Positions 947-55,623 of a DNA stretch of 64,000 nt are shown here, piece after piece. The notes beneath the pieces were generated by a model. The model saw only the letters and a list, made by a program, of their open reading frames with translations, ran no database searches and was not told the DNA's origin. Each line of letters begins with the position of its first letter. The stretch's first letter is position 1. The position numbers and the translations under genes are program-made. This stretch comes from Eledone cirrhosa. Taxonomy: Eukaryota. Location: positions 217,558,001-217,622,000 of the forward strand of contig OZ024741.1 of assembly GCA_964016885.1 (NCBI GenBank), read 5' to 3'.

Positions 947-956
947 ATGTCTGCAG
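947..956 (+). CDS. Probable first coding exon (ATG TCT GCA G|gt) of the UBL-repeat/TIR-domain gene
   Basis: AAAATG start context, CAG|GTATTT donor, and a phase-1 end that matches the phase required by the exon at 44572. It lies downstream of a non-repetitive promoter-like segment. The link across a 43.6-kb intron is inferred. Confidence 0.5.
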
Positions 957-1092
957 GTATTTCTAAATGTGCGCGAAATTGTACATTCAAGTTTCTACTC
1001 ATGTTTTAAACAGCCATTTATTTCGACTTTTCGTTCTTAAAAATATAACCATATTTTGTGTGTGTATATCTCTCTCTCTCTCTATATATATA

Positions 1093-1123
<31 letters not shown>

Positions 1124-1158
1124 CGATCTATTTACTTATATATCCATCTATCTATATA

Positions 1159-1259
1159 AAGGGTGTTCTCCAAAAATGTATACACACTTCAACAGCATTC
1201 TAATAAATATTTCTTGTAAAGGTAATTAAAGTGTGTATACACTTTTTAGGGACACCCTG
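1159..1259. mobile_element. Tc1/mariner-type MITE
   Basis: Imperfect ~33-bp TIRs (AGGGTGTTCTCCAAAAATGTATACACACTT / AAGTGTGTATACACTTTTTAGGGACACCCTG) flanked by TA. Confidence 0.7.
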
Positions 1260-1652
1260 TATATATATATATATATATGCATGCGTTCTTTTACTGGTAC
1301 CAGTCATTGGACTGAGAACATGCTCGTACCACTTTCTATCTATCTGTCTGTCTGTCTGTCTCTTTATCTGTCTACATTTTCATCTTTCTTTCTATCTGTC
1401 ATTTATATTGTATACTCCGCTCACATGTTTGTCCGTTCTATGTACGCGTGTATATAAAACAGCGCCTTAATAACAATAGTATATATATGTATATATAATG
1501 TGTATATGTTTACAGAGGGGGTGGGGCAGGTTATTAAAAAATGTCGATGAAAATCAGTCTTTATTTTACACATTCATAATTGTCTTCTATTTGAAATAAA
1601 AATCGATACAAACGCGAGTCAACTACATGCACACACTCATACATAAACATAG

Positions 1653-1712
<60 letters not shown>

Positions 1713-2049
1713 ATATACACACAATGACACATATATACATAAACAGACACACATTGCTGTGTTTGTATATTTCTGTATACATAAACACACACACACACAC
1801 ACACACACGTGTGTACGTCCGTCCATATTCACAAGCAATACACTGTGTTAATTAAGAGACCGGTTCTCAAACTTGACGGTGTATGTATCTCGCCCCATAA
1901 CAATATATACTTTGTCAATATTATACAATTTTAATTCAATCTTGTAGTATATAGCCTAGCAATAAAATAGGGTGTATATATATATATATATATATGACCT
2001 TAAATGTGTATATATATATATAGATAGATATATGTGTGTGTATCCATAT

Positions 2050-2225
2050 GTGGTAGACGGCTGAGAGAAAAAAAGTACTCAATACCGAAGTAGAGTTTTA
2101 ATATTCATTTTATTGGGGCTAAATAGTGAGTTTTGTTACTCTGGAGTTTCGCCTGTTTATCACAGGGTCAAACAGGCGAAACTCCAGAGTAACAAGACTC
2201 ACTATTTACCCTTAATAAAATGAAT
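2050..2225 (-). mobile_element. Fold-back PLE derivative
   Basis: Inverted arms at 2103-2225 around GTTTC-GCCTGTTT…AAACAGGC-GAAAC. Shares the ACTCTAC…GTATTGAGTACT motif (minus strand) with the elements at 16850 and 31570. Confidence 0.6.
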
Positions 2226-2668
2226 CACACACGCACACACACAAACACACATATATATATACATACACACAGTTTCTCAATACATTAATTTGCCCTGCAT
2301 TATATAATGTACTGTGTACACCTACAGTACATTAGGGTGTTAATATATATGTTTGTGTCAATACAATTATAACTCTATACTGTAACCCAGCTGTATAGAT
2401 ATATATATATATGTACCTTCTCAATACACTGTAATTTAACCCTGTACTATATACCCCAGTAGTACATTAGGGTGATGAAATATTTTTAAATTATATTTAA
2501 TTTACTCCCCTCCCCATCACTCCGTTTTCTCATGAATTCTATCATAAAAATTGTCTGTTGTTAGGTTGAACTGAAAGCTTCAAATTGATAATTTTTATCC
2601 GCTTATTAGTCATGTGGGTTTAGTATATATATATATATATATATAAAAATACATTATGAAGAGAGAAG

Positions 2669-2772
2669 AAACATTTAGATATAATTAGTAATAAAATGTA
2701 TCATACCTAAACTGTTCCTACAGGAACAGTTTAGGTATGATACATTTTATTACTAATTATATCTAAATGTTT
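2669..2772. repeat. Perfect 51-bp-arm palindrome with 2-nt loop
   Basis: 2669-2719 is the reverse complement of 2722-2772. Confidence 0.9.
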
Positions 2773-3014
2773 TAACTCTGATACTGGTTCAGTCTGGTTC
2801 AAACTGAATTGGTCTGTCCCAGTCATTCATTGAGCAACATCGGTGAAGTTGGCACCCTTAACTCACAGTTGGGTGCGGATGCATTCATGTATATATGTGT
2901 GTGTCCGCATGTATCTGTGTGTTTCTAAATATATATATATATATATACTAATGCGTGTGTGCGTGCGCGCGTATTTATGGACGTGTACATATGTGATTAT
3001 TGGCGTGTATACAT

Positions 3015-3046
<32 letters not shown>

Positions 3047-3939: not shown

Positions 3940-3987
<48 letters not shown>

Positions 3988-4164
3988 CGCGCACGCACAA
4001 ACATATACGTAAACAAACATTATTTAACAACATTCATACAATCACACATACACGCTCACTCACATTCATAAACGTGTTTATATATGTTGGTAAGTATCTA
4101 TGTATATATGTGTACTTGTGTGTATACGCATGTGTATATGTATATATGTATATATATATACACA

Positions 4165-4209
<45 letters not shown>

Positions 4210-5423: not shown

Positions 5424-5564
5424 CACACATATATAAATACATGCACATATATTGTCTAGAGGACTAGTCCTGTTTCATTCTCCACTTAATGCATTCAGTA
5501 CCTTACTTTAATTGTGGTTCCATCTTCTATTCTTTAAAGCTAAACCATTCAACTGTATATATAA

Positions 5565-7070
5565 GTGGTAGTGCTGGTGTCATTATGAAAACACCCAGTT
5601 TACCCTATAAAATGGTAGTGCTGGTGTCATGATAAAATACACTCAGTACACCCTGTAAAGTGGAAGTGCTAGTGTCATTATAAAAACACTCAGTTCACAC
5701 TGTAAAGTGGTAGTTCTGGTGTCGTTATAAACACATCCAGTACACCCTGTAATGTGGTGGTGCTGGTGTCCTGATAAAAACACCCAGTCCACACTGTAAA
5801 GTGTTAGTGTTGGTGTCATGATAAAAACACCCAGTCCACACTGTAAAGTGTTAGTGTTGGTGTCATGATAAAAACACCCAGTCCATTCTGTAAAGTGGTA
5901 GTGCTGGTGTCATGATAAAACACACCCAGTCCACACTGTAAAGTGTTAGTGTTGGTGTCATGATAAAAACACCCAGTCCACACTGTAAAGTGGTAGTGTT
6001 GGTGTCATGATAAAAACACCCAGTCCACACTGTAAAGTGTTAGTGTTGGTGTCATGATAAAAACACCCAGTCCACACTGTAAAGTGTTAGTGCTGGTGTC
6101 ATGATAAAACACACCCAGTCCACACTGTAAAGTGGTAGTGCTGGTGTCATGATAAAACACACCCAGTCCACACTGTAAAGTGTTAGTGTTGGTGTCATGA
6201 TAAAAACACCCAGTCCACACTGTAAAGTGGTAGTGCTGGTGTCATGATAAAACACACCCAGTCCACACTGTAAAGTGTTAGTGTTGGTGTCATGATAAAA
6301 ACATCCAGTCCACACTGTAAAGTGGTAGTGCTGGTGTCATGATAAAACACACCCAGTCCACACTGTAAAGTGTTAGTGTTGGTGTCATGATAAAAACACC
6401 CAGTCCACACTGTAAAGTGTTAGTGTTGGTGTCATGATAAAAACACCCAGTCCACACTGTAAAGTGTTAGTGTTGGTGTCATGATAAAAACACCCAGTCC
6501 ACACTGTAAAGTGGTAGTGCTGGTGTCATGATAAAACACACCCAGTCCACACTGTAAAGTGTTAGTGTTGGTGTCATGATAAAAACACCCAGTCCACACT
6601 GTAAAGTGGTAGTGCTGGTGTCATGATAAAACACACCCAGTCCACACTGTAAAGTGTTAGTGTTGGTGTCATGATAAAAACATCCAGTCCACACTGTAAA
6701 GTGGTAGTGCTGGTGTCATGATAAAACACACCCAGTCCACACTGTAAAGTGGTAGTGCTGGTGTCATGATAAAAACACCCAGTCCACACTGTAAAGTGTT
6801 AGTGTTGGTGTCATGATAAAAACACCCAGTCCACACTGTAAAGTGTTAGTGTTGGTGTCATGATAAAAACACCCAGTCCACACTGTAAAGTGTTAGTGTT
6901 ATGATAAAAACACCCAGTCCATTCTGTAAAGTGGTAGTGCTGGTGTCATGATAAAACACACCCAGTCCACACTGTAAAGTAGTGCTGATGCACACGTAGT
7001 ACACTCTGTAAAGTAATAGTGTAGGTGCAATGATAAAATACACCCAGTACACTTTGTGAGGTGGTAGTGA
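5565..7070. repeat. Tandem satellite, 47-48-bp unit
   Basis: About 30 copies of CCCAGTCCACACTGTAAAGTG(G/T)TAGTG(C/T)TGGTGTCATGATAAAAACA. Homogeneous centre, diverged edges. Confidence 0.95.
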
Positions 7071-15500: not shown

Positions 15501-16825
15501 TGAGGGGGGGATCAAAAAGTTCGCGGAATTTTTCAGAAAATATTCTATTTTTCAGAAAATATTCTATTTTTCAAAAAATATGATTTACCATCAATTTATT
15601 TTTCTACATAGTTGCTATCCAGGTCAATACACTTGACAAGGCGATGCTTCCAACTTCGTAAGCCGTCTCTAAAGAAAGTTGAAGGCCTTGTTCGAAGCCA
15701 TGTGTTGGCAGTGTTTTTAGCTTCTTCAACACCACTAAAACGGGTTCCTTTTAGCATTTCTTTGAGTTTTGGAAAGAGGAAAAAGTCTGATGGAGCTAAA
15801 TCTGGACTATAAGGCGGGTGAGGAAGCACTTCCCATCGAAATTCTCGAAGAACTTCTTTTGCAACCCACGCAGAATGTGCTGGTGCATTGTCATGGTGAA
15901 ACAAGATCCTACCATGAAGTTTCCCTTTTCGTTTCTTGACTAAAGCCTCTTTCAGCTTCCTTAAAACATTTGCATAGTAAGCTCCTGTCACAGTTTTTTG
16001 ACCTTCAAGATAATCTATTAGTATCACCCCATCTGAATCCCAGAAAATGGCCATCACTTTTTGATCCAACTTTTGAGATTTGAACTTGATTGGCCCCGAT
16101 GATCCACGTGGAAGCCACTGTTTTGACTGCTGTTTGGATTCAGCATCATACTGGTAGATCCAGGTTTCATCTCCGGTGATGATTCTGGTCAGGAAATGCT
16201 CTTCATCAACTTCAATTTTGTTTAATATCGTCAAAGACAGATGACTTCGAAGAATCAGCTGATCAGGGCGCAACGCTTTTGGGACCCATCGCGCTGAAAG
16301 CTTGCTTAGTCCCAAATTATCGTGCAGAATTGAATTTGCCGAACCATATGAAATGTCTAGGGACTTAGCTAACTGATTAACTGTTATTCTTCGATCTTCT
16401 TCAATTAAAGTCTGAGCAGCCTCAACGTTTTGGTCATTTTTTTATGTTCCTAGTCTTCCACTGTGATGGTCGTCTTCAAGGTCGTCTCTCCCTTGTTTGA
16501 ATCGCTGAATCCACTTGTAGCCAGCAGTTTTCTTTGGAGCAGTAGTACTGTAAACTTTAACTAAAACCTCCATAATCTGTGTCCCTTTCCATTTGAGTTT
16601 CACCAGAAACTTGATATTCGATCTTATCTCAAAATAACTATTTTCCATTGTTCCAAAAAGAGGTTTTTTAAAGAGTGTCAGTACTGTACAATAGTCCGCG
16701 CATAACTGCAAGTGACTAATAGCAAGGTAAACACCCAGTGACAATGTTCTGACATGTTTAATATTGTTTTAATCTATTTTTCTTTTACTACGATAAAATT
16801 CTGCGAACTTTTTGATCCCCCCTCG
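15501..16825 (-). mobile_element. Full-length mariner (DD34D) transposon
   Basis: TIRs (T/C)GAGGGGGGGATCAAAAAGTTCGC(G/A)GAATTTT at both ends with TA TSDs; 1325 bp. Confidence 0.95.
15596..16648 (-). pseudogene. Mariner transposase, ~350 codons, one premature stop at 16442-16444
   Basis: The two ORF-track pieces are in the same frame. Motifs WVPK, GDETW, HDNAPAH and YSPDLAPSD are present. Confidence 0.92.
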
Positions 16826-19084: not shown

Positions 19085-20517
19085 TTGGTATACATGCCCG
19101 ACGCTGTACGATAACCGCTCCCTTGTGAATATATTATCGAACAGACAAGGGGTGGACGGAGGCTCCGTAAGCTGTAGTGTAGGCAACCTGTCTAGGAGAG
19201 CTACCACTCCGAATAAATTGGTGCGGGATAGAGAAGTCCAGTAAGACAACTTCCCTAGTGCTGGTGGCACGAATAAAAGCACTCAGTCCATGCTGTAAAG
19301 TGGAGGGGTAACGAGGGCCCTGAGTTCAGTAAGACAACCTCTCTAGTGCTGGTGGCACGAGTAAAAGCACCCAGTCCATGGTGTAAAATGGAGGGGTGGA
19401 TAGGACCCCTGAGTCCAGTAAGACATCCTCTCTAGTGCTGGTGGCACGAATAAAAGCACCCAGTCCATGCTGTAAAGTGGTGCTGGTGTTAGGAAGGGCA
19501 CCCAACCAGTATATATACTACTGCCAAACACTATGAACGCAACGAATGGAATTTGCAAGAGCTGCGTAAACAGCAATAACACTATAGGGCTGCGCACGGT
19601 AGTGGGGTGGCTGGTGCGGCCATGTGTGAGAACCCCCCCGACCGTCATCAAGCAATCGCACAACAGGAGAAAGAACGAGACGTCGCATCTCAGAGTTGCC
19701 ACACTTAATGTTAGCACTCTAACAGGTAGATCTGGTGAGATAGCGGAGATGCTGGAGAGAAGGCATGTGGATGTGTGCTGCGTGCAAGAGGTGAGATGGA
19801 GAGGTGCCTTCTGCGAGACTAAACACAGGCAAACAGCGTAGTTATAAGCTTTTCTGGGTGGGTAATGATGATGGGTTAGGTGGGGTGGGCATATTACTGG
19901 CTGAGAGATGGATTGATAAGACAATAGAGGTAGTTTGAGTTAGTAATAGAATGATTAAGCTTAGATTAGTTGTAGGCAAGAGACTACTGACAACCATCTC
20001 TGCCTATGCTCCACAGGCAGGCCTAGGTAAAGAAGAGAAAGACTGCTTTTACGAGCAACTTTTACAAACAGCCTCAATGACAGAGGACAGAGACATCATT
20101 ATGCTAGGAGTGGACTTCAATGGACATGTTGGACAGCTCCAGGATTGATACACTGGGGTACATGGTGGGCACGGTTACGGCTCAAGAAATGGAGTGAGCC
20201 TACCAACCTAATAAGCTAGTTAGACAGCCAGACAGACAGACAGATGGTGTTAAAAACTAAGGCATACCCTGGGGAAGAATGTACCCCACAGCATAGGTTA
20301 GTCGTTAGTGACATCTCAGTAAGCATGAGAAAGAATGAGACATTCAGTAAAGTGTGGAAAAGAAAGGTCTGGAAGCTAAAAGACCTTTCATTAAAATATA
20401 AATTTAGCAAAGCCCTTCAAGACGTCTATGACGAAAAAGAAGACGATTTAGAGTTGTATGACATAGATAACTGGAATTTCTTACGTGACAACTTACTGCA
20501 GGCTACTGAAGAAACTT
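19085..20517 (+). mobile_element. RTE LINE copy 1: 5' UTR with ~87-bp tandem repeats plus a decayed APE endonuclease region; 3'-truncated
   Basis: Peptides LRVATLNV, DVCCVQEVRW, DFNGHVG and CTPQHRLVV, with stops and deletions. Three tandem UTR units at 19240-19480. Confidence 0.92.
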
Positions 20518-22130: not shown

Positions 22131-22419
22131 AGTGAATATACACATACATGACAAACACACAAAAGTTTTACATATACATCACACACAAATATATATATAT
22201 ATATATACATATATCTACAAATGTGGTTGGTGTTAGGGAGGGCATACAGCTGCAAAAGCCCTGATCAAATTTACAATCGCGTCAGAGCAAGGTACAGCGT
22301 CACCAATCCTGGCCAGACTTCTCTCTCAACGTGGATGACCCGTCTGACCCATGCAAGCATGGAAAATTGGACATTACACAATGATAATGATGGTGATGAT
22401 GATAATACATTACAAACGC

Positions 22420-25400: not shown

Positions 25401-26845
25401 AATTATACATATATACACATACATGACAAACACTAAAATTATACATATATACACATACATGACAAATACACTAAAATTATACATATATACACATACATGA
25501 CAAATACACTAAAATTATACATATATACACATACATGACAAATACACTAAAATTATACATATATACACATACATGACAAATACACTAAAATTATACATAT
25601 ATACACATACATGACAAATACACTAAAATTATACATATATACACATACATGACAAATACACTAAAATTATACATATATACACATACATGACAAACACTAA
25701 ATTATATATATATACACATACATGACAAATACACTAAAATTATACATATATACACATACATGACAAATACACTAAAATTATACATATATACACATACATG
25801 ACAAATACACTAAAATTATACATATATACACATACATGACAAATACACTAAAATTATACATATATACACATACATGACAAACACTAAATTATACATATAT
25901 ACACATACATGACAAATACACTAAAATTATACATATATACACCTACATGACAAACACTAAATTATACATATATACACATACATGACAAATACACTAAAAT
26001 TATACATATATACACATACATGACAAATACACTAAAATTATACATATATACACATACATGACAAAACACTAAAATTATACATATATACACATACATGACA
26101 AATACACTAAAATTATACATATATACACATACATGACAAATACACTAAAATTATACATATATACACATACATGACAAATACACTAAAATTATACATATAT
26201 ACACATACATGACAAATACACTAAAATTATACATATATACACATACATGACAAATACACTAAAATTATACATATATACACATACATGACAAATACACTAA
26301 AATTATACATATATACACATACATGACAAATACACTAAAATTATACATATATACACATACATGACAAATACACTAAAATTATACATATATACACATACAT
26401 GACAAATACACTAAAATTATACATATATACACATACATGACAAATACACTAAAATTATACATATATACACATACATGACAAATACACTAAAATTATACAT
26501 ATATACACATACATGACAAATACACTAAAATTATACATATATACACATACATGACAAACACTAAAATTATACATATATACACATACAGGACAAATACACT
26601 AAAATTATACATATATACACATACATGACAAATACACTAAAATTATACATATATACACATACATGACAAACACTAAAATTATACATATATACACATACAG
26701 GACAAATACACTAAAATTATACATATATACACATACATGACAAATACACTAAAATTATACATATATACACATACATGACAAACACTAAAATTATACATAT
26801 ATACACATACATGACAAACACTAAAATTATACATTTATACATGAC
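22420..26845. repeat. 4.4-kb satellite, ~35-38-bp unit
   Basis: CATACATGACAAA(TA)CACTAAA(A)TTATACATATATACA, more than 100 near-identical copies. Confidence 0.97.
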
Positions 26846-33209: not shown

Positions 33210-33520
33210 CTGCTGTTCTTATAGCTAGAGGGAAGTTCCCATCCCAATGTTTTGTTATTGCCCATATAGCTTGAGGAAGGTCCCGGCCCTGAGGTGTCTG
33301 CACGTCCCGGAGGGGTCCCTATAGCTTGAGGGGAGTTCCCAATCTAATGTGTTGTTACTGTCCATATAGCTTGAGGGAGGTCCCGGCCCTGAGGTGTCTA
33401 CATCTTCTGGAGAAGTGCCTATAGCTTTAGGGAAGTTCACATCCCAATGTGTTGTTACTGTCCATATAGCTTGAGGAAGGTCCCGGTCCTGAGGTGTATA
33501 CATGTCCCGAAGAAGTCAGT
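33210..33520 (-). repeat. ~95-bp tandem repeats of the PLE ORF 3' end
   Basis: About three units containing CCCAATGTGTTGTTACTGTCCATATAGCTTGAGGAAGGTCCCGG. Confidence 0.8.
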
Positions 33521-37929: not shown

Positions 37930-40900
37930 TGACCATGCTGTAAAATGGAGGGGTAGAGAGGGCCCTTGAGTCTAGTAAGACATCCTCTCTAGTGCTGGTG
38001 GCACAAATAAAAGCACCCAGTCCATGCTGTAAAGTGGCGCTGGTGTTAGGAAGGGCATCCAACCAGTGTATCAATGCCAAAAAGCTTATCAGCACAGCAA
38101 CAAAACAGCATAGAAAAAAATATGAAGACGTTGCATCTCAGAGTTGCAACACTTAATGTTGGCACTCTCAGAGGTAGATCTGCTGAAATAGCGGAGATGC
38201 TGGAGAGAAGGCAGGTGGATGTGTGCTGCGTGCAAGAGGTGAGATGGAGAGGTGCCTCTGCGAGACTAGTCGTAGGCAAGCGTCTTAGCTATAAGCTATT
38301 CTGGGTAGGTAAGGATGATGGGTTAGGGGGAGTAGGCATTTTCCTGGCTGAGAAATGGATCAATAAGACAATAGAGGTAGTTCGAGTTAGTAATCGAATA
38401 ATTAAGCTTAGATTAGTTGTAGGTAGGAGACTACTGACAATCATCTCGGTCTATGCTCCCCAAGCAGGCCTAGGCAAAGATGAGAAAGACTGCTTTTATG
38501 AGCAACTTTTGCAAACAACCACAATGACAGAGGACGGAGACATCGTTATGCTAGCAGGAGACTTCAATGGTCATGTTGGACAGCTCCAGGATGGTTACAC
38601 TGGGGTACATGGTGGGCATGGTTACGGTTCAAGAAATGAAGAAGGAGTGAGACTTCTTGAATTTTGTGATGCAAGTACATTGACTATTTGCAACACAAAC
38701 TTCCAGAAACCTGCCAATCACCTAATAACCTACAAATCTGGTGAGCACATAAGCCAGATTGACTTCCTGCTAGTTAGGCAGCGGGACAGGCAGATAGTGT
38801 CTAATACCAAGGCATACCCTGGGGAAGAATGTACCCCACAGCATAGGTTAGTTGTTAGTGATATCTCAGTAAGCAAGAGATGGAATGAGCCATATAGGAA
38901 GGTGTGGAGAAGAAAGGTCTGGAAGCTAAAAGACCTTTCACTAAAATTCAAATTTAGGAAAGCCCTTCAAGATGTATATGACGAAAAAGAAGACGATTTA
39001 GAGACGTATGACATAGATAATAACTGGAAGTTCTTACGTGACAACTTGCTGAAGGCTACTGATGAAACTTGTGGCTGGAGCAGAGCCCCAACCAGACAGA
39101 GAGTGACCTGGTGGTGGAACAGCAGTGTAGATAAGGCTATTAGAGACAAAAGACTAGCATGGAAGGCTTGGAATAAGGGTGGGAGTAGGGAAGAATATAC
39201 AGCCACTAAGAGAGAAGCTAGACGTCAGGTGTACTTAGCACGCAGGGAGGCAGAGAGTAGGAGGTTTGCCAATGTTCTGCGACGGGAAGATCAGAGGCGT
39301 GCGGTGTTCCACATTGCAAGGCAGTGTGTCAATGCAAATCAGGATGTTGTTGGTGATAAATGTGTCCGGGATGATGCCGGTGTACTTAGTGTCACGAATG
39401 ACCAGAAAAAGGAGGCCTGGAAATGCCATTATGAGAGACTGATGAATGTGGAGAACGAATGGGAGAGAGAGAAATTACCCTTGGTAGATCCGACAGAGGG
39501 ACCAGCTATTGAGATTGACGAATATAGGGTCCAAGAGGCGATTAGGGAAATGAAAAATGGTAAGGCGGCCGGACCATCGGGAATAGTTGCTGAGATGCTG
39601 AAGGCATCAGGGGACGTAGGCACTAAACTGGTTGCACGCATAATCAATCAGGCTATATATGGTGGTGTCATACCCAAAGACTGGTGCAGCAGTATTCTCA
39701 TAAATTGCTACAAAGGTAAAGGGGATGCTTTGGAGAGGAGCAATTATAGGGGTATAAAACTGATAGATCAGGTTATAAAAGTGGCAGAAAGGATTTTAGC
39801 ACAACTAATTAGAGAAAGGGTCAAACTAGATGAGATGCAGTTTGGTTTTGTGCCTGGGAAGAGTACAACAGATGCCCTCTTCTTGGTGAGACAAATGCAA
39901 GAGAGGTTCTTAGAGAAGAATAAGCCACTATACTTGGCCTTTGTTGACCTAGAGAAGGCCTTTGATAGGGTACCCCGATCTGTCATCTGGTGGTCCCTAA
40001 GGAAGCTGGGTGTTGAGGAATGGCTTGTAAGGACAGTGCAAACTTTGTACAGAGGTACTCTCAGTAAAGTCAGGGTAGGAATGGAGTTTAGTGAGGAATT
40101 CCAGATACAAGTAGGAGTACATCAGGGTTCGGTCCTCAGCCCGCTCTTGTTCATTATAGTCCTCCAAGCCATAACAGAGGAGTTTAAGACTGGCTGTCCA
40201 TGGGAACTTCTCTATGCTGACGATCTGGCTCTTATGGCAGAATCAGTAGAGGAGCTAGAGAATAAATTCCGGCTATGGAAACAGCAGTTGGAAGCAAGAG
40301 GACTGAGAGTAAATCTAGCTAAGACAAAAGTGTTGATGAGTAGAAAAGAGGACAAAACCCTGATTCCGTCAGGGAAATGGCCATGTTCGATATGCAGAAA
40401 AGGAACTGGCATAAATTCTATAAAATGCACACAATGTAGGTCCTGGGTACACAAGAGATGTAGCGGGATAGCAGGCAAACTAACAGGTAGGGAGAAATAT
40501 GTATGCAGTAGATGTACAGGGAAATTAGACAGTAGAAGTCGCACTGATAGACACATTTTTCAAATGCGAGAGGGCGCTATAGAAGTGGTGGATAGCTTCT
40601 GGTACCTAGGAGATCAGATTAGCATGGGAGGAGGGTGTTCCGAGGCCATAGTATCTAGAATAAGGACGGGTTGGAAGAAGTTTAGGGAGCTGCTTCCTCT
40701 GTTGACGAAGAAGGGTTTCTCCCTGCGTACGAAAGGCCGGTTGTATGATGCCTGTGTGAGGAGCGCGATGCTGCATGGTAGTGAGACATGGGCAGCTACC
40801 GCAGAAGATATGCGACGGCTGGAGAGAAATGAGGCAAGCATGCTCCGTTGGATGTGCAGTGTAAATGTGCGTGAACGACCCAGCATAAATGTGTTGAGAG

Positions 40901-41217
40901 AGAAACTGTGTCTGAGAGGGATAGAATGTAGTGTACGGGAGAGGAGACTGAGGTGGTATGGACATGTGATGCGCATGGAGGATGACCGATGGGTGAAGAA
41001 GTGCCAGGAAATGCCAGTTGAAGGAAGACGTAGTAGAGGTAGACCACGAAAAACATGGGCGGAGGTGGTGAGAACAGACCTCAGATCATTGAAGCTCACG
41101 GTGGAGATGACGAGGGACCGTGACGAGTGGAGAGATGCTGTGCTGAATAAGACCCGTCCCACCCTTGCAAGCAGGGAAAAGCGGACGTAAAATGATGATG
41201 ATGATGATGATGATGAT
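37930..41217 (+). mobile_element. RTE-clade LINE copy 3 with intact ORF
   Basis: Single ORF, very short 3' UTR, (GAT)n tail. Confidence 0.96.
38074..41190 (+). CDS. RTE LINE polyprotein: APE endonuclease, reverse transcriptase and PHD-like zinc finger (alternative start at 38122)
   Basis: 1038 codons without a stop. Motifs TLNV, VQE, GDFNGH, QIDF, QHRL, NYRGI, QFGF, DLEKAFD, QGSVLSP, YADD and a C4HC3 cluster. Confidence 0.96.
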   Translation: MPKSLSAQQQNSIEKNMKTLHLRVATLNVGTLRGRSAEIAEMLERRQVDVCCVQEVRWRGASARLVVGKRLSYKLFWVGKDDGLGGVGIFLAEKWINKTIEVVRVSNRIIKLRLVVGRRLLTIISVYAPQAGLGKDEKDCFYEQLLQTTTMTEDGDIVMLAGDFNGHVGQLQDGYTGVHGGHGYGSRNEEGVRLLEFCDASTLTICNTNFQKPANHLITYKSGEHISQIDFLLVRQRDRQIVSNTKAYPGEECTPQHRLVVSDISVSKRWNEPYRKVWRRKVWKLKDLSLKFKFRKALQDVYDEKEDDLETYDIDNNWKFLRDNLLKATDETCGWSRAPTRQRVTWWWNSSVDKAIRDKRLAWKAWNKGGSREEYTATKREARRQVYLARREAESRRFANVLRREDQRRAVFHIARQCVNANQDVVGDKCVRDDAGVLSVTNDQKKEAWKCHYERLMNVENEWEREKLPLVDPTEGPAIEIDEYRVQEAIREMKNGKAAGPSGIVAEMLKASGDVGTKLVARIINQAIYGGVIPKDWCSSILINCYKGKGDALERSNYRGIKLIDQVIKVAERILAQLIRERVKLDEMQFGFVPGKSTTDALFLVRQMQERFLEKNKPLYLAFVDLEKAFDRVPRSVIWWSLRKLGVEEWLVRTVQTLYRGTLSKVRVGMEFSEEFQIQVGVHQGSVLSPLLFIIVLQAITEEFKTGCPWELLYADDLALMAESVEELENKFRLWKQQLEARGLRVNLAKTKVLMSRKEDKTLIPSGKWPCSICRKGTGINSIKCTQCRSWVHKRCSGIAGKLTGREKYVCSRCTGKLDSRSRTDRHIFQMREGAIEVVDSFWYLGDQISMGGGCSEAIVSRIRTGWKKFRELLPLLTKKGFSLRTKGRLYDACVRSAMLHGSETWAATAEDMRRLERNEASMLRWMCSVNVRERPSINVLREKLCLRGIECSVRERRLRWYGHVMRMEDDRWVKKCQEMPVEGRRSRGRPRKTWAEVVRTDLRSLKLTVEMTRDRDEWRDAVLNKTRPTLASREKRT

Positions 41218-41219
41218 AG

Positions 41220-43660
41220 CAAGAGTGCTTAGTTGAACCATGATGGAGGCAAATGATATGATTTCCCTTTTTAGAGAGTTAATATGCAGGAGGAAGCAAT
41301 TGTTGCTGGGTGATATTTAATTTATTTAAGAAAAAGGATTAGGTAGGGTGTGAGGGAGGTAACTCTTGGAAATGTTTGATGGTTTGTTGCAGTTTTAGAT
41401 TGGTCAGATTTTTAGAGTATTGAGTAGTAGTTGAAATTTATTAATGAAATGTGTTTCCTTATTGGTACGTTGGATGAAAGTAGCCTTGTCTATGAATTTG
41501 TAAATGGGGAAAATTTTAAAGTTTGGATGTTGGTTGTGAGCACAATTGGCGATATGTTCACTAAATGCAATCTTTCTGTATTCCTGTATTTTAATTTGTG
41601 ATTTATGGATGGTCATACGTTGATGGAGGCTATTTTTTGTCTGTCCTATGTAGTGCTCTTGTCAACCTGAGCAGGTCAAAACATAGATAAGGTTTTCAGA
41701 TGCACATGTAAAGTTGTGTTTAACTGTGAAACGTCCTTGTTTAAAATGGAATGTTGAACCTTCTATTAGATTTATTCATATGCCACAGTTGGGCCTTCTG
41801 CATTTTGTTACTGTAGGGTTCATTGTGAGGGTTTGTTGGATTTTGGCTTGTGTGAGGATGTTTTTTATGGATTTGGGTTGTCTTTTGCTCTTTACGATGT
41901 TGTGTGTTTGGAGGATATTGTTCATTCTTGGGTCTCTTTTTAGTAAAGGAATGTTCTGGAGGATGGTGTTGAATGCCTCATTGTTGAGGGGGTTGTGTGT
42001 GGAGATGTATGGTAGAGTTTTTTGTTGCAGTTCATTCCTGGGTTTGGGGTGTCTGAGTTCCTGGATGTCTAGTTTTAGGGCACATTGGAATCCATTGGTG
42101 ATTAGGGATGGTGGGTAGTTTCTGCTGATAAGTGTGTTTTTTAATTCTTCTAGTCGTGTGTAGCATGTGTATTTATCTGAAACTATTGTGCAGATCCTTC
42201 TGGCTAGGTTATAAAGAATTGCCATTTTGGTATGTCGAGGGTGGCATGAGTTAAATGGAAGATATTGTTTGGAGTCTGTGGGTTTGTAGTATATGTCTGT
42301 TTCTATTTTGTTGCTTGTTTTCTTGATGAGGATGTCGAGGAAAGGGAGTTGTTCATGGCTGTAATCCATTGTGAATTGTAAGTTAGTGTTGAGTCCATTC
42401 AGAAGGGTTTTAAACTCGAACAGTCTATCTATACTTTCATGCCAGAGGATGAAGCAGTCGTCCAGATATCTCTTCCAGTTCTATCTATGTGTTGGTAGAA
42501 GTGGTTGCCGTATTTGTCTAGAACTTTGCAGTAGAGAATGGTTTCCAAATATCCCATGACAAGGTTTGGCGTATGAGGGGGCTACTTTCGTGCCCATGGC
42601 AGTCCCAGATTTCTGTCTGTAGTATTTGGCATTGAATTCAAAGAAATTGTTTTCCAAGATGAATTTGAGTCCCTCCAACACAAATTCTTTAGGGATGCGC
42701 TGTGGAAGTTCATTAGGGAAATTTTCCATCCAGAATTGTATTGCCTCTATACCTAGGTTGTGTGGGATATTGGAATATAAATTGATGACATCAAAGGTTA
42801 CTAGTAGGGTATGTTCGTTATTGAGTGTTGTTGGGAGGTGGTTGAACATGTCAAGATAGTCCCTTGTGAAGCTTTTTATATGTTTTAGGAAAGGTTTAAG
42901 CAGAATATCTAGGAAATTGCTTAGGCGGTGGGTTTCACATGTGGTGCCTGCTATTATGGGTCTTAATTTAAGGTCATCAGGAGGGGCTATATTGATGGAA
43001 ACGTCTGTGGCTTGCTTGCAGGCCTTGCCTGTTACTTCGCTTTTGTGTGTCTTGGGGATACCATAGAAGAGGGTGGTTCTGCTTTTGAAATTGGTGATGT
43101 AGTTGTATTCCAAGGAATACAACTACATCTTTGTAAAGGGTTGTTAGGGATTTTAGGTTTCTCATTATTTTCTGTTGTGTGTAGTGTTGGGACTTTTCAT
43201 AATATGTTTGGTTTTCTAGAGTTGAGAGTACTATAGTTGTGTAATAATCTGTCTCCATAAGGACAACTGCACTCCCTTTATCTGCCCCTTTCATTGTTAG
43301 GGTTTTGTCGTTTTTTAGACTGTTAAGACCATTCCATTCTTTTTTGCTTAGGTTTGGTTTTATGTCTGTGTAGGTGGTGGTATGGGTTATTAGTAATGTG
43401 TTCGCAGAATTGATCGAGGAATTTATTCTTGCCTTTTGGTGGGGTGTAGTTGCTTCTATTTCTGGTTATTGAGTCATTCGCATTGTATTTGTCATATAGT
43501 TGTTCGCCGAGTCTTAGTTTTCTACAGAATTCTGCAATACCTTCCTTCATTTCGGGGTAGTTTGGTTGTTGGGGAGTTGGTGTACATTTTAGACCTTTGG
43601 AGAGTATGTTGATTTGGTCTGTTGTTAATTCTTTAGAGGTTAAATTGACAATTTATATCA
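41220..43660 (-). mobile_element. Penelope-like retroelement, Neptune-type (RT, Cys linker, GIY-YIG), frameshifted in the 5' half
   Basis: LSKGL, ADKGSAVV, FYGIPKTHK, LRPII, FDVINLY, GTAMGT, RYLDD, LPFLD, YYKPTD, HPRH, Cx4Cxx(TGA), LIY…YIGQT. Stop at 41404-41406. Confidence 0.9.
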
Positions 43661-44764: not shown

Positions 44765-44825
44765 GTAAGATGTTTTTTTATGTTTTATTTTCTTGATGTC
44801 CATTGTTCATTTCCCTTTTAAGAGT

Positions 44826-46620
44826 TTAACCCTTTAGTTACCAACCCAGCCAAAATGGCTCTAGTTCTATGAAATGCAACCACCCATTTTAACCCTTTAG
44901 TTACCAACCCAGCCAAAACTGGCTCTAGTTCTATGAAATACAACCACCCATTTTAACCCTTTAGTTACCAACCCAGCCAAAACCAGCTCTGGTTCTATGA
45001 AATAAAACCACCCATTTTAGCCCTTTAGTTACCAACCCAGCCAAAACCAGCTCTGGTTCTATGAAATACAACCACCCATTTTAACCCCTTAGTTACCAAC
45101 CCAGCCAAAACCAGCTCTGGTTCTATGAAATAAAACCACCCATTTTAACCCTTTAGTTACCAACCCAGCCAAAACCAGCTCTAGTTCTATGAAATACAAC
45201 CACCCATTGTAACCCCTTAGTTACCAACCCAGCCAAAACTGGCTCTAGTTCTATGAAATACAATCACCCATTTTAACCCTATAGTTATCAACCCAGCCAA
45301 AACTGGCTCTAGTTCTATGAAATACAACCACCCATTTTAACCCCTTAGTTACCAACCCAGCCAAAACTGGCTCTAGTTCTATGAAATACAATCACCCATT
45401 TTAACCCTATAGTTATCAACCCAGCCAAAACTGGCTCTAGTTCTATGAAATACAATCACCCATTTTAACCCTATAGTTATCAACCCAGCCAAAACTGGCT
45501 CTAGTTCTATGAAATACAATCACCCATTTTAACCCCTTAGTTACCAACCCAGCCAAAACTGGCTCTAGTTCTATGGAATACAACCACCCATTTTAACCCC
45601 ATAGTTATCAACCCAGCCAAAACTGGCTCTAGTTCTATGAAATACAACCACCCATTTTAACCCCTTAGTTATCAACCCAGCCAAAACTGGCTCTAGTTCT
45701 ATGAAATACAACCACCCATTTTAACCCCTTAGTTATCAACCCAGCCAAAACTGGCTCTAGTTCTATGAAATACAACCACCCATTTTAACCCCTTAGTTAT
45801 CAACTCAGCCAAAACTGGCTCTAGTTCTATGAAATACAACCACCCATTTTAACCCCTTAGTTACCAACCCAGCCAAAACTGGCTCTAGTTCTATGAAATA
45901 CAACCACCCATTTTAACCCCTTAGTTACCAACCCAGCCAAAACCAGCTCTGGTTCTATGAAATACAACCACCCATTGTAACCCCTTAGTTATCAACCCAG
46001 CCCAAACTGGCTCTAGTTCTATGAAATACAACCACCCATTTTAACCCCTTAGTTATCAACCCAGCCAAAACTGGCTCTAGTTCTATGAAATACAACCACC
46101 CATTTTAACCCCTTAGTTATCAACTCAGCCAAAACTGGCTCTAGTTCTATGAAATACAACCACCCATTTTAACCCCTTAGTTACCAACCCAGCCAAAACT
46201 GGCTCTAGTTCTATGAAATACAACCACCCATTTTAACCCCTTAGTTACCAACCCAGCCAAAACCAGCTCTGGTTCTATGAAATACAACCACCCATTGTAA
46301 CCCCTTAGTTATCAACCCAGCCAAAACTGGCTCTAGTTCTATGAAATACAACCACCCATTTTAACCCCTTAGTTATCAACCCAGCCAAAACTGGCTCTAG
46401 TTCTATGAAATACAATCACCCATTTTAACCCTATAGTTATCAACCCAGCCAAAACTGGCTCTAGTTCTATGAAATACAACCACCAATTTTAACCCCTTAG
46501 TTATCAACCCAGCCAAAACTGGCTCTAGTTTTATGAAATACAATCACCCATTTTAACCCTATAGTTATCAACCCAGCCAAAACTGGCTCTAGTTCTATGA
46601 AATACAATCACCCATTTTAA
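44826..46620. repeat. Tandem satellite, ~62-bp unit, derived from a MITE end
   Basis: TTAACCC(C/T)TTAGTTA(C/T)CAACCCAGCCAAAACTGGCTCTAGTTCTATGAAATACAACCACCCATT, about 29 copies. Confidence 0.95.
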
Positions 46621-49148: not shown

Positions 49149-49237
49149 ATGGCCAGTTTTAATTGAACAAGAGAAAGATGTTCCTATTGAAGAAATTATA
49201 TCTGAAGATGCCTGTGTTTATATTGAAAGATATTTTG
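49149..49237 (+). CDS. Exon 3 (WPVLIEQEKDVPIEEIISEDACVYIERYFG)
   Basis: TTTACAG acceptor, G|GTAAGT donor, 89 nt, phase 2 to 1. Confidence 0.88.
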
Positions 49238-50033: not shown

Positions 50034-50331
50034 ACTGTAAAATCATGGTTTTACTTTAACTCATCTCAAGTCTATTTAGGCCTCTACTTATTGATATAAT
50101 TGTTTCTACTTTAGGCACAAGGCCAGCAAATCACTCAGTACATTACTGGTACTTTATTTTATACTTATTGATATAATATTCTGGATTGTGGTGGGAATTT
50201 TGGCCCCTTGAAACTAGTATCCATATAATAGTTGACCCCATATATTTAACCTCAATTTCAGCTTTTACATGAGTATATACAGTAATGAAATTTGATGTCA
50301 AACTTAAGGTGGTTTGATTTTGTTGTTTCAG

Positions 50332-50438
50332 GTATGCCCAGAATTGGTATAATGACCCAGAAAGGTGAGGGGTTGGGTTATCTTCTGGCAGAATATACAT
50401 TACCCCTGTTAAAACTTCGAGATTTGCTAATTGAACAG
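50332..50438 (+). CDS. Exon 4, start of second ubiquitin-like repeat (MPRIGIMTQKGEGLGYLLAEYTLPLLKLRDLLIEQ)
   Basis: TTTCAG acceptor, CAG|GTTTGT donor, 107 nt, phase 1 to 0. Confidence 0.85.
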
Positions 50439-51487: not shown

Positions 51488-51699
51488 TAACCCTTTAGCA
51501 TCTAAATTGGCCATATCCGGTCAGAATTCTCTCATCTCTTTCTGTTCAAACCAGCTGTAACCAGCCACTCATACTGACGTTAAGATATTGTTCTCAAAAT
51601 AACTAATATCAAAATCTCATAGATTCAATATGTGAGATAAAGCCTTTACCATGAAAATACAATATTAAATATAGAGTAATATAAATGCTAAAGGGTTAA
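51488..51699. mobile_element. piggyBac-type MITE 25 bp upstream of exon 5
   Basis: TTAA-CCCTTTAGCAT … ATGCTAAAGGG-TTAA. Confidence 0.85.
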
Positions 51700-51724
51700 A
51701 GTTTCCCCCTCTTTTATTTGACAG

Positions 51725-51918
51725 AGAATTGTAAACAATGTCCTACCATTCTTGTTCCTCACCTCTAATGGTTGGCCAGTGAGTTTTATCCAAGAACAGT
51801 TTCTACAAGTTATGGATGTTCTCAACAACTCCTCCATCTGCATTATGGATGACCCACCGACAAACTGTGCACTTTTAGACAGTATCATGGACAATTTACC
51901 TACACGTAAACGGAAACA
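51725..51918 (+). CDS. Exon 5 (RIVNNVLPFLFLTSNGWPVSFIQEQFLQVMDVLNNSSICIMDDPPTNCALLDSIMDNLPTRKRK)
   Basis: TTTGACAG acceptor. The CA|GTTAAG donor was chosen because it gives the phase 2 needed by exon 6. FLFLTSNGWPV..QE mirrors FTFRTRKGWPV..QE of repeat 1. Confidence 0.82.
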
Positions 51919-52075: not shown

Positions 52076-52109
<34 letters not shown>

Positions 52110-52113
<4 letters not shown>

Positions 52114-52322
52114 ATAATAATAATAATAATAATTTTCTACTTTTGGCACAAGGCCAGGAATTATCCCAGTGTGTTACTGGTACTTTATTTCATCGACCCC
52201 GTAAGGATGAAAGGCAAAGTTAACCTCGGCAGGATTTGAACTCGGACCATAAAGGGCCGTAACTCTTTGCTGCAAAGCATAGCGTCCGACTCTCTACCGA
52301 TACTGCCAATCCACCAGCCTTC
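52110..52322 (-). mobile_element. Full-length SINE family A
   Basis: Reverse complement of 14228-14420, embedded in (AAT)n. Confidence 0.85.
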
Positions 52323-52450
52323 ATAATAATAATAATAATGGAAATTATTGTGTACAATGTTTTTTTATCCTTTAAATTCTGTTTTCAGTTCCTACTTACC
52401 TGGAATTATCTGTTTTTAGTTCCATCTCACCTGTATTTGTCTGTTTTCAG

Positions 52451-52613: not shown

Positions 52614-52699
52614 GTAAGCAACCAGTTTTTTTGTCTTTAAATGCCTTTCTAGTTTAAGACTTTTTTTCCTCTGTTTATTGTATCTATTCTCTTCCCTAT

Positions 52700-54110
52700 T
52701 TACTGTATATCTAGTTTACAATAGGTACACTGTACTCCTGTGTATATCTGGTTTAGAATAGGTACACTGTATCCCTGTGTGTATCTGGTTTACAGTAGGT
52801 ACACTATATCCCTGTGTATATCTAGTTTACAATAGGTACACTGTATCCCTGTGTATATCTAGTTTACAATAGGTACACTGTATCCCTGTGTGTATCTGGT
52901 TTACAGTAGGTACACTATATCCCTGTGTATATCTAGTTTACAATAGGTACACTGTACTCCTGTGTATATCTGGTTTAGAATAGGTACACTGTATCCCTGT
53001 GTGTATCTGGTTTACAGTAGGTACACTATATCCCTGTGTATATCTAGTTTACAATAGGTACACTGTATCCCTGTGTATATCTAGTTTACAATAGGTACAC
53101 TGTATCCCTGTGTATATCTAGTTTACAATAGGTACACTGTATCCCTGTGTATATCTAGTTTACAATAGGTACACTGTATCCCTGTGTATATCTAGTTTAC
53201 AATAGGTACACTGTATCCCTGTGTATATCTAGTTTACAATAGGTACACTGTATCCCTGTGTATATCTAGTTTACAATAGGTACACTGTATCCTTGTATCT
53301 GTCTCTGGTTTACAATAGGTACACTGTATCCCTGTATGTATCATCATCATCATCATCATCAGGTTTAGCGTCCGTGTTCCACGCTTGCATGGGTTTGGAC
53401 GGGGGTTTTCCCACTTGAGGCAAGAGTGTATGTATATGGTTTACAATCGGTACACGGTATCCTTGTGTGTCTCTGGTTTACAATAAGTACACTGTATCCC
53501 TGTATGTATATGGTTTACAATCGGTACACGGTATCCTTGTGTGTCTCTGGTTTACAATAGGTACACTGTATCCCTGTATGTATATGGTTTACAATAGGTA
53601 CGCTGTATCCTTATGTGTCTCTGGTTTACAATAGGTACACTGTATCCCTGTATGTATATGGTTTACAATAGGTACACTGTATCCTTATGTGTCTCTGGTT
53701 TACAATAGGTACACTGTATCCCTGTATGCATATGGTTTACAATAGGTACACGGTATCCTTGTGTGTCTCTGGTTTACAATAGGTACACTGTATTCCTGTG
53801 TGTATATGGTTTACAATAGGTACGCTGTATCCTTATGTGTCTCTAGTTTACAATAGGTACACTGTATCCCTGTATGTATATGGTTTACAATAGGTACACT
53901 GTATCCTTATGTGTCTCTGGTTTACAATAGGTACACTGTATCCTTATGTGTCTCTGGTTTACAATAGGTACACTGTATCCCTGTATGTATATGGTTTACA
54001 ATAGGTACACGGTATCCTTGTGTGTCTCTGGTTTACAATAGGTACACTGTATCCCTGTGTGTCTTTTGTTTACAATAAGTACACTGTAGTATGTACAATA
54101 AGTACACTGT
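52700..54110. repeat. 37-bp satellite interrupted by a short antisense RTE-type tail (53341-53425)
   Basis: Unit GTTTACAATAGGTACACTGTATCCCTGTGTATATCT(A/G). Confidence 0.93.
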
Positions 54111-54189
54111 ACTAGTATGTAGGAAATATTTCTAATAGTGTTATTATGGAAATAATTGTCTTCCCTTTGATTTCTTTCTCTTCTGCTAG

Positions 54190-54315
54190 GATGTTGATGA
54201 GATTAAAACCGGAGCTGATTGGCAAGATTCATTAAATCATGGAGTGAGCAATTGTGAAATATTCATACCTCTTCTTACCCATCGATATGGACTGACACGC
54301 TGGAGCAACAGAGAG
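54190..54315 (+). CDS. Exon 7, TIR core (DVDEIKTGADWQDSLNHGVSNCEIFIPLLTHRYGLTRWSNRE)
   Basis: CTAG acceptor, GAG|GTAAAT donor, 126 nt, phase 0 to 0. Contains a BB-loop-like segment and WxxxE. Confidence 0.92.
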
Positions 54316-54324
54316 GTAAATAAT

Positions 54325-54490
54325 TATTTCTACTTTTGGCACAAGGCCAGCAATTATCCTAGTGCATTAATGGTACTTTATTTTATCGACCCCCATAAAG
54401 ATGGCAAACTAACCTCGGCGAGATTTGAGCTCAGACCATAAAGGGACATAACTCTGTGCTGGAAAGCATGGCGTCCGACCCTCCACCGAT
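54325..54490 (-). mobile_element. SINE family A with 17-bp TSD spanning the exon 7 donor
   Basis: ACAGAGAGGTAAATAAT at 54308-54324 and at 54491-54507. Confidence 0.88.
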
Positions 54491-54511
54491 ACAGAGAGGT
54501 AAATAATAAGG

Positions 54512-54715
54512 GTTTCTTATATAGGCACAAGGCCAGCAATTTTGGGGGAGGAGTAAGTCGATTAAATCGACTCCAATATGTTACCGGTACTTTATTATTT
54601 TATCAACTTTATAAACATGGAAGGCAAAGCTAACCTCGGCAGGAGATGAGCTCAGAACGTAAAGGGCCATAGCTATATGCCGCAAAGCATGTTGTCCGAC
54701 GCTCTACCGATTCTG
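54512..54715 (-). mobile_element. Older SINE family A variant
   Basis: Same tail and body motifs, more diverged. Confidence 0.78.
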
Positions 54716-55069
54716 AATATTTAGAATTCTTAGCATTGTTATATTTTTGATTTTTGTTTTTATGGTAGTTTTAATCAGTTGCATCCATTAGTTACCTCCC
54801 TTGGCCAAATTTCAGAACTTTGTTCTTATCAAACAATAGGAGTCTGGATCCTATTGATTGTGTGACTGGGTGTCTGGATCCTATTGGCTGTGTGGCTGTG
54901 GCCTATTGATAGGGTGGGTGTCCAGAGTTTATTAACTGGGTGGGAGGGTGTCTCAAGTCTATTGGCTGGGTGGGTGTCTGGAGTCTATTGACTTGGTGTC
55001 TAGATCCTATTGATTGGGTGTCTAGATCTTATTGACTGCGTGGGTGTGGGGATATCTAGAGCCTATTGC

Positions 55070-55410
55070 TTGTGAGGGAGACCTCCATCTATAGACTCTG
55101 AAGGAGACCTCTAACTGTAGGTTGTGAGGGAGACCTCTAACTATAGGCTGTGAGGGAGACCTCTAACTATAGGCTGTGAGGGAGACCTCTATCTATAGAC
55201 TGTGATGGAGACCTCTATCTATAGGTTGTGAGGGAGACCTCTATCTATAGGTTGTGAGGGAGACCTCTAACTATAGGCTGTGAGGGAGACTTCTAACTAT
55301 AGGCTGTGCGGGAGACCTCTAACTATAGGCTGTGAGGGAGACCTCTATCTATAGGCGGTGAGGGGGACTTCTATCTAACTATAGGTTGTGAGGGAGACCT
55401 CTATAGGGTA
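55070..55410. repeat. 26-bp minisatellite (ATAGGCTGTGAGGGAGACCTCTAACT)
   Basis: About 12 copies. Confidence 0.9.
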
Positions 55411-55496
55411 AGTGTGGCCCTCTGAAGATAAGGGACCCTGTTTCCCCAAAAACCAATTACTGATCCATTATTTAATATTTATTATTTTATTTCCAG

Positions 55497-55623
55497 GTTA
55501 AACTTGCTGATATCTTAGGAAAATTTATTCTTCCTATCAACTTCCTATCTGAGTGGCCACCAAGTTGTCTCGCAATCCAATTGGCGACAACTCAGTATAT
55601 TAATGGAATACGACAGTCAGCAT
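55497..55623 (+). CDS. Exon 8, TIR C-terminal part (VKLADILGKFILPINFLSEWPPSCLAIQLATTQYINGIRQSA); gene continues beyond the window
   Basis: TTTCCAG acceptor, T|GTAAGT donor, 127 nt. KFILPI is a TIR beta-D-like motif. No stop codon is reached. Confidence 0.9.

What the first reader, a model, noticed from the sequence alone, without database searches (positions are those of the whole stretch)
947..55623. Spliced gene encoding tandem ubiquitin-like repeats fused to a SARM1-like TIR domain with the catalytic Glu
Seen: eight GT-AG exons join in phase into ~336 aa that the ORF track misses. The N-terminus is internally duplicated: LGVV…LRTQLSRQ…FTFRTRKGWPVLIEQE versus LGYL…LRDLLIEQ…FLFLTSNGWPVSFIQE. 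It is followed by a basic patch (TRKRKH, possible NLS) and a TIR domain: ILISY…VFLDVDEIKTGADW…FIPLL…WSNREV…ILPI. Known: the WxxxE glutamate is catalytic in NAD+-cleaving TIRs (SARM1, plant NLR TIRs, bacterial Thoeris ThsB). Inference: the repeats look like beta-grasp/SPATA1-N-type domains. No signal peptide, LRR, TM, ARM or SAM region occurs in the recovered part, so this may be an uncharacterised intracellular enzymatic TIR signalling protein of invertebrates.
Basis: partly seen in the sequence, partly recalled or inferred. Interest (0 to 1): 0.7.

Follow-up and report, generated by a model that had tools for sequence, protein, structure and literature searches.

The report
Invertebrate ubiquitin-TIR-SLOG signalling protein gene
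This is the front half of an intact octopus gene from an ancient, uncharacterised invertebrate family that joins two predicted ubiquitin-like domains, a likely NAD-cutting immune-type enzyme domain, a likely inactive copy of it and a predicted nucleotide-binding fold known from bacterial antiviral defence, whose pocket looks worn away in octopuses.

Summary
The eight exons are real: GT-AG, in phase, 336 codons without a stop, 92% identical to an annotated Octopus bimaculoides protein. They are only the first 8 of 19 exons; the full protein has 833 aa.

The family runs from sponges to echinoderms, molluscs, chelicerates and tardigrades.

Best reading: a soluble NAD+-cleaving TIR enzyme gated by its own SLOG nucleotide pocket, ThsA-like logic in one chain. 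The pocket is complete in 45 of 74 SLOG domains but worn in cephalopods, scallops and spiders, while the repeats are nearly invariant in octopods. No activity is shown; only 12 of 61 Glu-bearing animal TIRs were active in one screen. It is neither SARM1 nor Thoeris. The scan already noted this family in another genome, and this gene's back half in the next window.

The parts
947..956 (+). Exon 1, coding part (start codon); a second donor after 968 gives a 4-residue longer N-terminus
   Evidence: matches the N-termini of annotated isoforms P0007/P0003 and P0001/P0008
44572..44764 (+). Exon 2: most of ubiquitin-fold repeat 1
49149..49237 (+). Exon 3: end of repeat 1
50332..50438 (+). Exon 4: first half of ubiquitin-fold repeat 2
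51725..51918 (+). Exon 5: second half of repeat 2, then the start of the low-confidence linker with the basic patch (about 51902-51918); one match in the genome
52451..52613 (+). Exon 6: linker and start of TIR1 (ISY motif)
54190..54315 (+). Exon 7: TIR1 core; Trp codon 54301-54303 and predicted catalytic Glu codon 54313-54315 (W290, E294 of the 833-aa model); one match in the genome
55497..55623 (+). Exon 8: TIR1 C-terminal part, with the highly conserved WPP...LAIQ segment
55624..64000 (+). Start of intron 8, mostly a 17-bp satellite. It runs past the window's end. Exons 9-19 (end of TIR1, TIR2 with Gln at the Glu position, SLOG domain with a worn pocket, tail, stop codon) lie beyond, at G000:C2:217626224-217661127

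Best explanation
An intact 19-exon octopus gene encodes a predicted soluble 833-aa protein ordered Ubl-Ubl-TIR1-TIR2-SLOG that likely works as a regulated NAD+-cleaving signalling enzyme. TIR1 likely cuts NAD+ to ADP-ribose or a cyclic form once copies assemble. TIR2 lacks the catalytic Glu and is inferred to be a scaffold or brake. In most animals the SLOG pocket is inferred to bind an ADP-ribose-type nucleotide and switch TIR1, as SLOG switches the SIR2 NADase in Thoeris ThsA. The ubiquitin-fold pair has no di-glycine end and is inferred to be a protein-docking input. In octopods the SLOG pocket has lost its Glu and glycine loops while the repeats are almost invariant, so control has probably shifted from nucleotide to protein input. 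Shown: gene structure, domain order, conservation pattern. Predicted: folds. Inferred: catalysis, ligand, gating and any immune role.
For: Gene: 19 exons, 18 GT-AG introns, one terminal stop, 89% identical to the orthologue. TIR1: aligns to SARM1 at the ISY, D, WxxxE and EWP positions; Z 15.9, rmsd 2.2 over 128 residues; Glu in 126 of 126 and Trp in 123 of 126. It is the most conserved domain at depth, 58% octopus to sponge against 21-32% for the other domains. That Trp favours cyclic products in tested TIRs (10.1101/2022.05.07.491051, passages). TIR2: Glu in at most 6 of 104 at either candidate column. SLOG: Pfam LDcluster4 in 20 of 32 and STALD in 17 of 32 members at E<=0.05; Z 16.3 to a LOG-fold protein and Z 14.3 (rmsd 3.8, 171 residues) to BcThsA SLOG bound to 3'cADPR. 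The family Arg and Glu lie 23 residues apart, as do LOG Arg99/Glu122. All four pocket features are present in 45 of 74 whole SLOG domains. Repeats: pLDDT 94.6, and the top 50 structural matches are dominated by ubiquitin-fold chains, best Z 8.5. They are 97-100% identical among octopods against 77-86% for SLOG in Argonauta and this species. No di-Gly in 58 of 58.
Against: No activity, ligand or expression was shown. Only 12 of 61 Glu-bearing animal TIRs gave products in E. coli (10.64898/2026.04.20.719644, section 6). The SARM1 match is within 1 Z of the TIRs of TIRAP (15.3) and Hydra TRR-2 (15.2). The ThsA match is lower than matches to LOG-type and Moco-carrier proteins, so the ligand is open. 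The residue mapping to ThsA rests on motif spacing, not on superposed coordinates. The protein in this window lacks the SLOG Glu and both glycine features and its orthologue has no Pfam SLOG hit, so gating probably does not apply to this copy. The full-length model has pTM 0.51, so domain contacts are unknown. Nothing tested ties the gene to immunity.
Confidence: 0.42

Rival explanations
1. Non-enzymatic scaffold. TIR1 and TIR2 act as assembly adaptors like MyD88 or TIRAP, and the Glu is kept for ligand binding or structure.
For: Adaptor TIRs tie with SARM1 structurally. 49 of 61 Glu-bearing animal TIRs showed no activity in one screen. TIR2's profile region hits MyD88 weakly (E 0.13). Two TIRs and two Ubls suit a scaffold.
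Against: The SARM1-type active-site positions scored are near-invariant from sponge to octopus, while the neighbouring TIR2 lost them. TIR1 is fused to a nucleotide-binding fold.
Confidence: 0.2
2. Writer plus eraser. TIR1 makes an ADPR-type signal and the SLOG domain is a LOG-type N-glycosidase that destroys it. Octopods lost the eraser.
For: The family keeps Arg and Glu at LOG spacing. LOG-fold proteins lead the structural list. Some SLOGs are proposed to cleave ADPR derivatives (PMC9503650, passages).
Against: The Thr of PGGxGTxxE is mostly Ala here. ThsA also uses an Arg and a Glu for ligand binding.
Confidence: 0.15
3. A TIR enzyme whose SLOG is only a structural or dimerising module throughout the family, with control by the ubiquitin-fold pair alone. 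It would have a developmental or neuronal role rather than an immune one.
For: The pocket is worn in at least three separate well-supported clades with TIR1 kept. Fifteen relatives with long non-matching flanks carry only a TIR1 match. The gene gave one match in this genome and the tree follows animal groups, unlike fast-expanding immune families.
Against: 45 of 74 SLOG domains, from sponges to echinoderms, keep all four pocket features, which implies a ligand.
Confidence: 0.2

Closest known systems
SARM1 / C. elegans TIR-1
   Same: Best solved sequence match for TIR1 (E 2.2e-7), same WxxxE site, soluble, enzyme domain fused to regulatory domains.
   Different: No ARM or SAM domain. It has two ubiquitin folds, a second Glu-less TIR and a SLOG domain instead.
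Type I Thoeris (ThsB TIR, ThsA SIR2-SLOG)
   Same: A Glu-bearing TIR and a SLOG fold with Arg, Gly and Glu pocket residues; SLOG joined to a predicted NAD+-cleaving domain.
   Different: One spliced animal gene rather than an operon. No SIR2. Ligand unknown, and the pocket is worn in octopods.
LOG phosphoribohydrolases / SLOG cluster4 (PF18306)
   Same: Fold, GGxGxxxE loop and Arg-Glu spacing in most family members.
   Different: Fused behind TIRs, the motif Thr is mostly Ala, and the Glu is lost in octopods.
ecTIR-DC families (Gerdol et al. 2017; paper not seen, known only through PMC6321704)
   Same: Conserved invertebrate TIR proteins of unknown role. A Trichoplax ecTIR-DC 15 protein has 865 aa and one annotated TIR, similar in size to this family.
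   Different: No sequence was available, so identity is untested. That listing shows no ubiquitin-like or SLOG domain.
Tandem ubiquitin-like domains (USP7 Ubls, ISG15, OASL, talin head)
   Same: Two beta-grasp folds in a row.
   Different: 5-20% identity, best Z only 8.5, a different relative orientation, and no di-Gly for conjugation.

Membership tests
Catalytic-type TIR domain (TIR1) | TIR fold / PF13676 above cut-off | tested here: met
   70 bits against cut-off 28 in the orthologue; Z 15.9 to SARM1 TIR
Catalytic-type TIR domain (TIR1) | Glu on helix alphaC in WxxxE | tested here: met
   126 of 126 Glu, 123 of 126 Trp; aligned to SARM1
Catalytic-type TIR domain (TIR1) | Glu-dependent NAD+ cleavage | not testable with these tools
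   needs an assay
Catalytic-type TIR domain (TIR2) | Catalytic Glu | tested here: not met
   Gln in this gene; Glu in 5 or 6 of 104, by column
SARM1 orthologues | ARM and tandem SAM domains before the TIR | tested here: not met
   The N-terminal region folds as two ubiquitin-like domains; no ARM or SAM family among 32 members
SLOG superfamily | LOG/DprA Rossmannoid fold | tested here: met
   Z 14-16 to LOG-fold proteins and ThsA SLOG over residues 580-778 of the orthologue model; PF18306 in 20 of 32 members
SLOG superfamily | Intact nucleotide pocket in this copy (first loop, Arg, GGxGxxxE, downstream GG) | tested here: not met
   Of the four features scored only the Arg is kept here; 45 of 74 family domains keep all four
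Type I Thoeris | SIR2-SLOG effector encoded beside a separate TIR gene in a prokaryote | tested here: not met
   Single spliced animal gene; no SIR2 family among 32 members
Type I Thoeris | 3'cADPR made by the TIR and bound by the SLOG | not testable with these tools
   needs LC-MS and binding assays
Beta-grasp (ubiquitin-like) domains | Beta-grasp fold in each repeat | tested here: met
   pLDDT 94.6; Foldseek E 8e-7 to ISG15; VIA Z 8.2, rmsd 2.8 for repeat 2 and Z 6.3-6.4 for repeat 1. These Z values are middling but the list is uniform
Conjugatable ubiquitin-like modifiers | C-terminal di-glycine | tested here: not met
   0 of 58 after either repeat
SPATA1 N-terminal domain | Sequence or profile similarity to SPATA1 | tested here: inconclusive
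   No SPATA1 sequence on hand; no such name in Pfam or Atlas results, which does not exclude it
ecTIR-DC 15 | Orthology to the defining sequences | not testable with these tools
   Only a length and a domain sketch were seen

The most novel reading that the evidence does not exclude
This family is the missing animal receiver for TIR-made ADP-ribose signals: a ThsA-like SLOG pocket, kept since sponges, senses a cADPR-type messenger and fires its own TIR NADase, giving animals a one-chain Thoeris-type amplifier. Cephalopods, scallops and spiders each rewired it away from nucleotide control, in octopods towards ubiquitin-fold protein input.
Probability: 0.2. Interest if true: 0.88.

Novelty: new variant of a known kind. 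Interest (0 to 1): 0.6.

Why it matters
A 2026 preprint reports that animal TIRs make cADPR. What reads such signals in animals is, to my knowledge, an open question. A conserved animal protein that carries both a Glu-bearing TIR and a SLOG pocket is a direct, testable candidate. The family also supplies natural controls: species with an intact pocket (chiton, sponge, sea urchin) against species with a worn one (octopus, scallop, spider). The octopus copy is the least likely to bind the ligand, which lowers the interest of this particular gene.

Tried and rejected
RNA support: no RNA holder listed. The three runs laid are at most one sample, covered exons and introns alike, and showed no GT-AG joint among the best-supported rows printed. 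This is no evidence either way.

The alternative first exons annotated in O. sinensis and Argonauta were not found in the window by tblastn.

My first automatic choice of downstream exon borders was wrong and was redone by hand.

Prokaryotic relatives of the SLOG: none recognised by a word-seeded protein search of shorter proteins (8 unnamed hits at 48-96% identity, taken as family fragments but not checked) or a pattern scan of species genomes (170 candidates, 0 confirmed). Both are insensitive. A SLOG-only profile found no solved structure below E 0.5.

ESM Atlas hits for the repeats were all under 0.9, so leads only.

The intact/worn label on the tree came from a crude pattern that miscalled at least P0028 and P0013. 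I do not use its count of changes, only the three supported clades.

The place of the TIR1-only proteins is unresolved because the outgroup is very distant.

Burroughs et al. 2015 on SLOG systems (recalled) was not held. Nine paper searches listed no paper that I could see describing this architecture; I opened 6 of the listed papers.

Rejected: chance exon chaining, pseudogene, SARM1 orthologue, conjugatable ubiquitin fusion.
Full report
OBSERVATION. They join through seven GT-AG introns into 336 codons without a stop. One exon used as a query found an O. bimaculoides protein (LOC106872313, 840 aa) and an Argonauta protein. The spliced model matches them at 92% and 88%. O. sinensis and O. vulgaris isoforms sit in the same cluster. 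Two donors behind the start codon reproduce two annotated N-termini, which supports the tiny exon 1 across its 43.6-kb intron. These orthologues are predicted models. The only transcript-like hint is a relative whose 829 residues lie on a 3,178-base contig (that it is a transcript is my inference). The organism is inferred to be an octopod from similarity and tree position.

THE WHOLE GENE. Eleven further exons follow in the 40 kb beyond the window (G000:C2:217626224-217661127). The 19-exon model has 833 residues, only GT-AG introns and one stop, and is 89% identical to the orthologue. Exon 5 and exon 7 queries each gave one match in the genome. The domain order is Ubl1, Ubl2, linker, TIR1, linker, TIR2, SLOG, tail. 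Of 173 search hits examined (many are fragments or other TIR proteins; isoform duplicates left out), 58 have all five domains in this order. Named members come from sponges (Amphimedon, Oscarella), echinoderms, chiton, bivalves, gastropods, cephalopods, horseshoe crab, spiders and tardigrades. A 59-sequence tree groups the named members by animal lineage, as expected for vertical descent.

REPEATS. The duplication is weak between single sequences (1 of 5000 shuffles reached the score) but strong between profiles (98.8%, E 4e-17). The pair folds at pLDDT 94.6. Foldseek's top hits are ISG15, di-ubiquitin, USP7 Ubls and talin. The wide structural search is dominated by ubiquitin-fold chains in its top 50, best Z 8.5, which is middling. 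No di-Gly follows either repeat in 58 of 58. Among octopods the repeats are 97-100% identical, more than any other domain, but only 21-23% identical to the sponge protein. This suggests a tightly constrained partner surface in that lineage (inference). The SPATA1 label could not be tested. A basic motif lies in 28 of 68 linkers against 6.6 expected, mainly in molluscs among the 40 printed; nuclear import is plausible but untested.

TIR1 AND TIR2. TIR1 matches SARM1 best among solved sequences (E 2.2e-7), with the ISY, Asp, WxxxE and EWP positions aligned. Structurally SARM1 (Z 15.9) ties with TIRAP (15.3) and Hydra TRR-2 (15.2). Among 126 TIR1-type domains scoring 100 bits or more, Glu is present in 126 and Trp in 123; one model lacking this exon fell below the threshold. 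TIR1 is the best-kept domain at depth (58% to sponge). TIR2 has a TIR fold but Gln at the equivalent place, and Glu in at most 6 of 104 (the register rests on the recalled WCxxE pattern).

SLOG. The C-terminal domain is invisible to Pfam in octopods, but 20 of 32 aligned members hit SLOG cluster4 and 17 hit STALD at E<=0.05. The orthologue model (pLDDT 73, pTM 0.51) matches LOG-fold proteins at Z 14-16 and BcThsA SLOG bound to 3'cADPR at Z 14.3. The family consensus keeps an Arg and a GGxGxxxE loop whose Glu lies 23 residues on, the spacing of the proposed catalytic pair in CgLOG (PMC4979012, passages). Its Gly-to-Glu step of four matches ThsA G399/E403 (10.1101/2022.05.07.491051, passages). 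These mappings are by motif, not coordinates. Of 74 whole SLOG domains, 45 keep all four features scored and 16 lack both the Glu and the downstream GG, among them this gene, other cephalopods, scallops and spiders. Those three groups are separate supported clades with intact relatives beside them.

MECHANISM. I commit to a regulated NAD+-cleaving enzyme (0.42). TIR1 is the catalyst, TIR2 a dead scaffold or brake, SLOG the ancestral nucleotide gate, and the Ubl pair a docking input that probably dominates in octopods. The logic follows ThsA and SARM1, where a nucleotide-binding domain controls a fused NADase. Against it: only 12 of 61 Glu-bearing animal TIRs were active in E. coli, this copy's pocket is worn, and the full-length model does not fix domain contacts. 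The rivals are a non-enzymatic scaffold (0.2), a TIR enzyme with a merely structural SLOG (0.2) and a writer-eraser fusion (0.15).

WHAT IS KNOWN. It is not SARM1 and not Thoeris by defining features, though it may work like both. It may already be catalogued as an ecTIR-DC family (PMC6321704, passages and supplementary file 1; Gerdol 2017 not seen). The 2026 preprint on animal TIR activity (abstract, passages and sections 5, 6, 8, 13 read) lists SLOG among the domain abbreviations of its Figure 3 of cADPR-making proteins. A member of this family may therefore already have been assayed; the figure and supplements could not be seen, and this bears on both activity and novelty. A TIR survey (PMC7075850, passages) has no mention of SLOG in its main text. 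PMC9503650 (passages) describes SLOGs as sensors or glycosidases. Nine searches listed no description of this architecture (see Tried and rejected); most subscription papers are not covered.

EARLIER SCAN NOTES. I had written down the SLOG reading before finding two notes with the same conclusion, one on another genome and one on this gene's back half. They are not independent evidence. A third note there mentioned an ecTIR-DC figure in PMC6321704, whose supplement I then read.

VERDICT. Observation confirmed; interpretation partly supported and extended. New variant of a known kind; interest 0.6.

Noticed in passing
window 38050-41187 (+), intron 1: Stop-free frame of 1046 codons with endonuclease, reverse transcriptase and PHD-finger hits: a recent-looking non-LTR retrotransposon. 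Decayed similar copies lie near 27457-30113 and 19476-19838.
   Followed up: partly
window 15599-16441 (-): Mariner-type transposase frame of 281 codons (PF01359, PF13358).
   Followed up: partly
window 33458-36115 (-) and 41779-43465 (-): Several open frames that look by eye like Penelope-type retroelement pieces (label recalled). The three scanned had no Pfam hit.
   Followed up: partly
window 55697-63996, 22405-26841, 44825-46620, 5563-6980, 52708-54088: Long intronic tandem arrays: 17 bp x490 with extreme strand skew, 38 bp x120, 64 bp x28, 47 bp x30 and 37 bp x37.
   Followed up: no
P0113, P0115, P0116, P0118, P0121, P0123, P0124, P0128, P0130, P0131, P0134, P0136, P0141, P0142, P0042: Proteins of 470-890 aa matching only TIR1, several with low-complexity flanks. 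One is named from a mite. They may be stripped-down members; tree position unresolved.
   Followed up: partly
Ubl2-TIR1 linker of P0011-P0016, P0020, P0039, P0043, P0047, P0048: Non-cephalopod molluscs carry a conserved LSF..SKD-like motif just after the basic patch. It is absent in cephalopods and could be a regulatory site.
   Followed up: no
P0012/P0021 and P0203-P0206: Apparent local duplications of the gene in Tegillarca (adjacent locus tags) and Dreissena.
   Followed up: no
window about 54319-54400, 52200-52350, 51680-51700, 50130-50165: Very high-copy short repeats close to exons 4-7, one starting just after the exon 7 donor (depth and joints).
   Followed up: no
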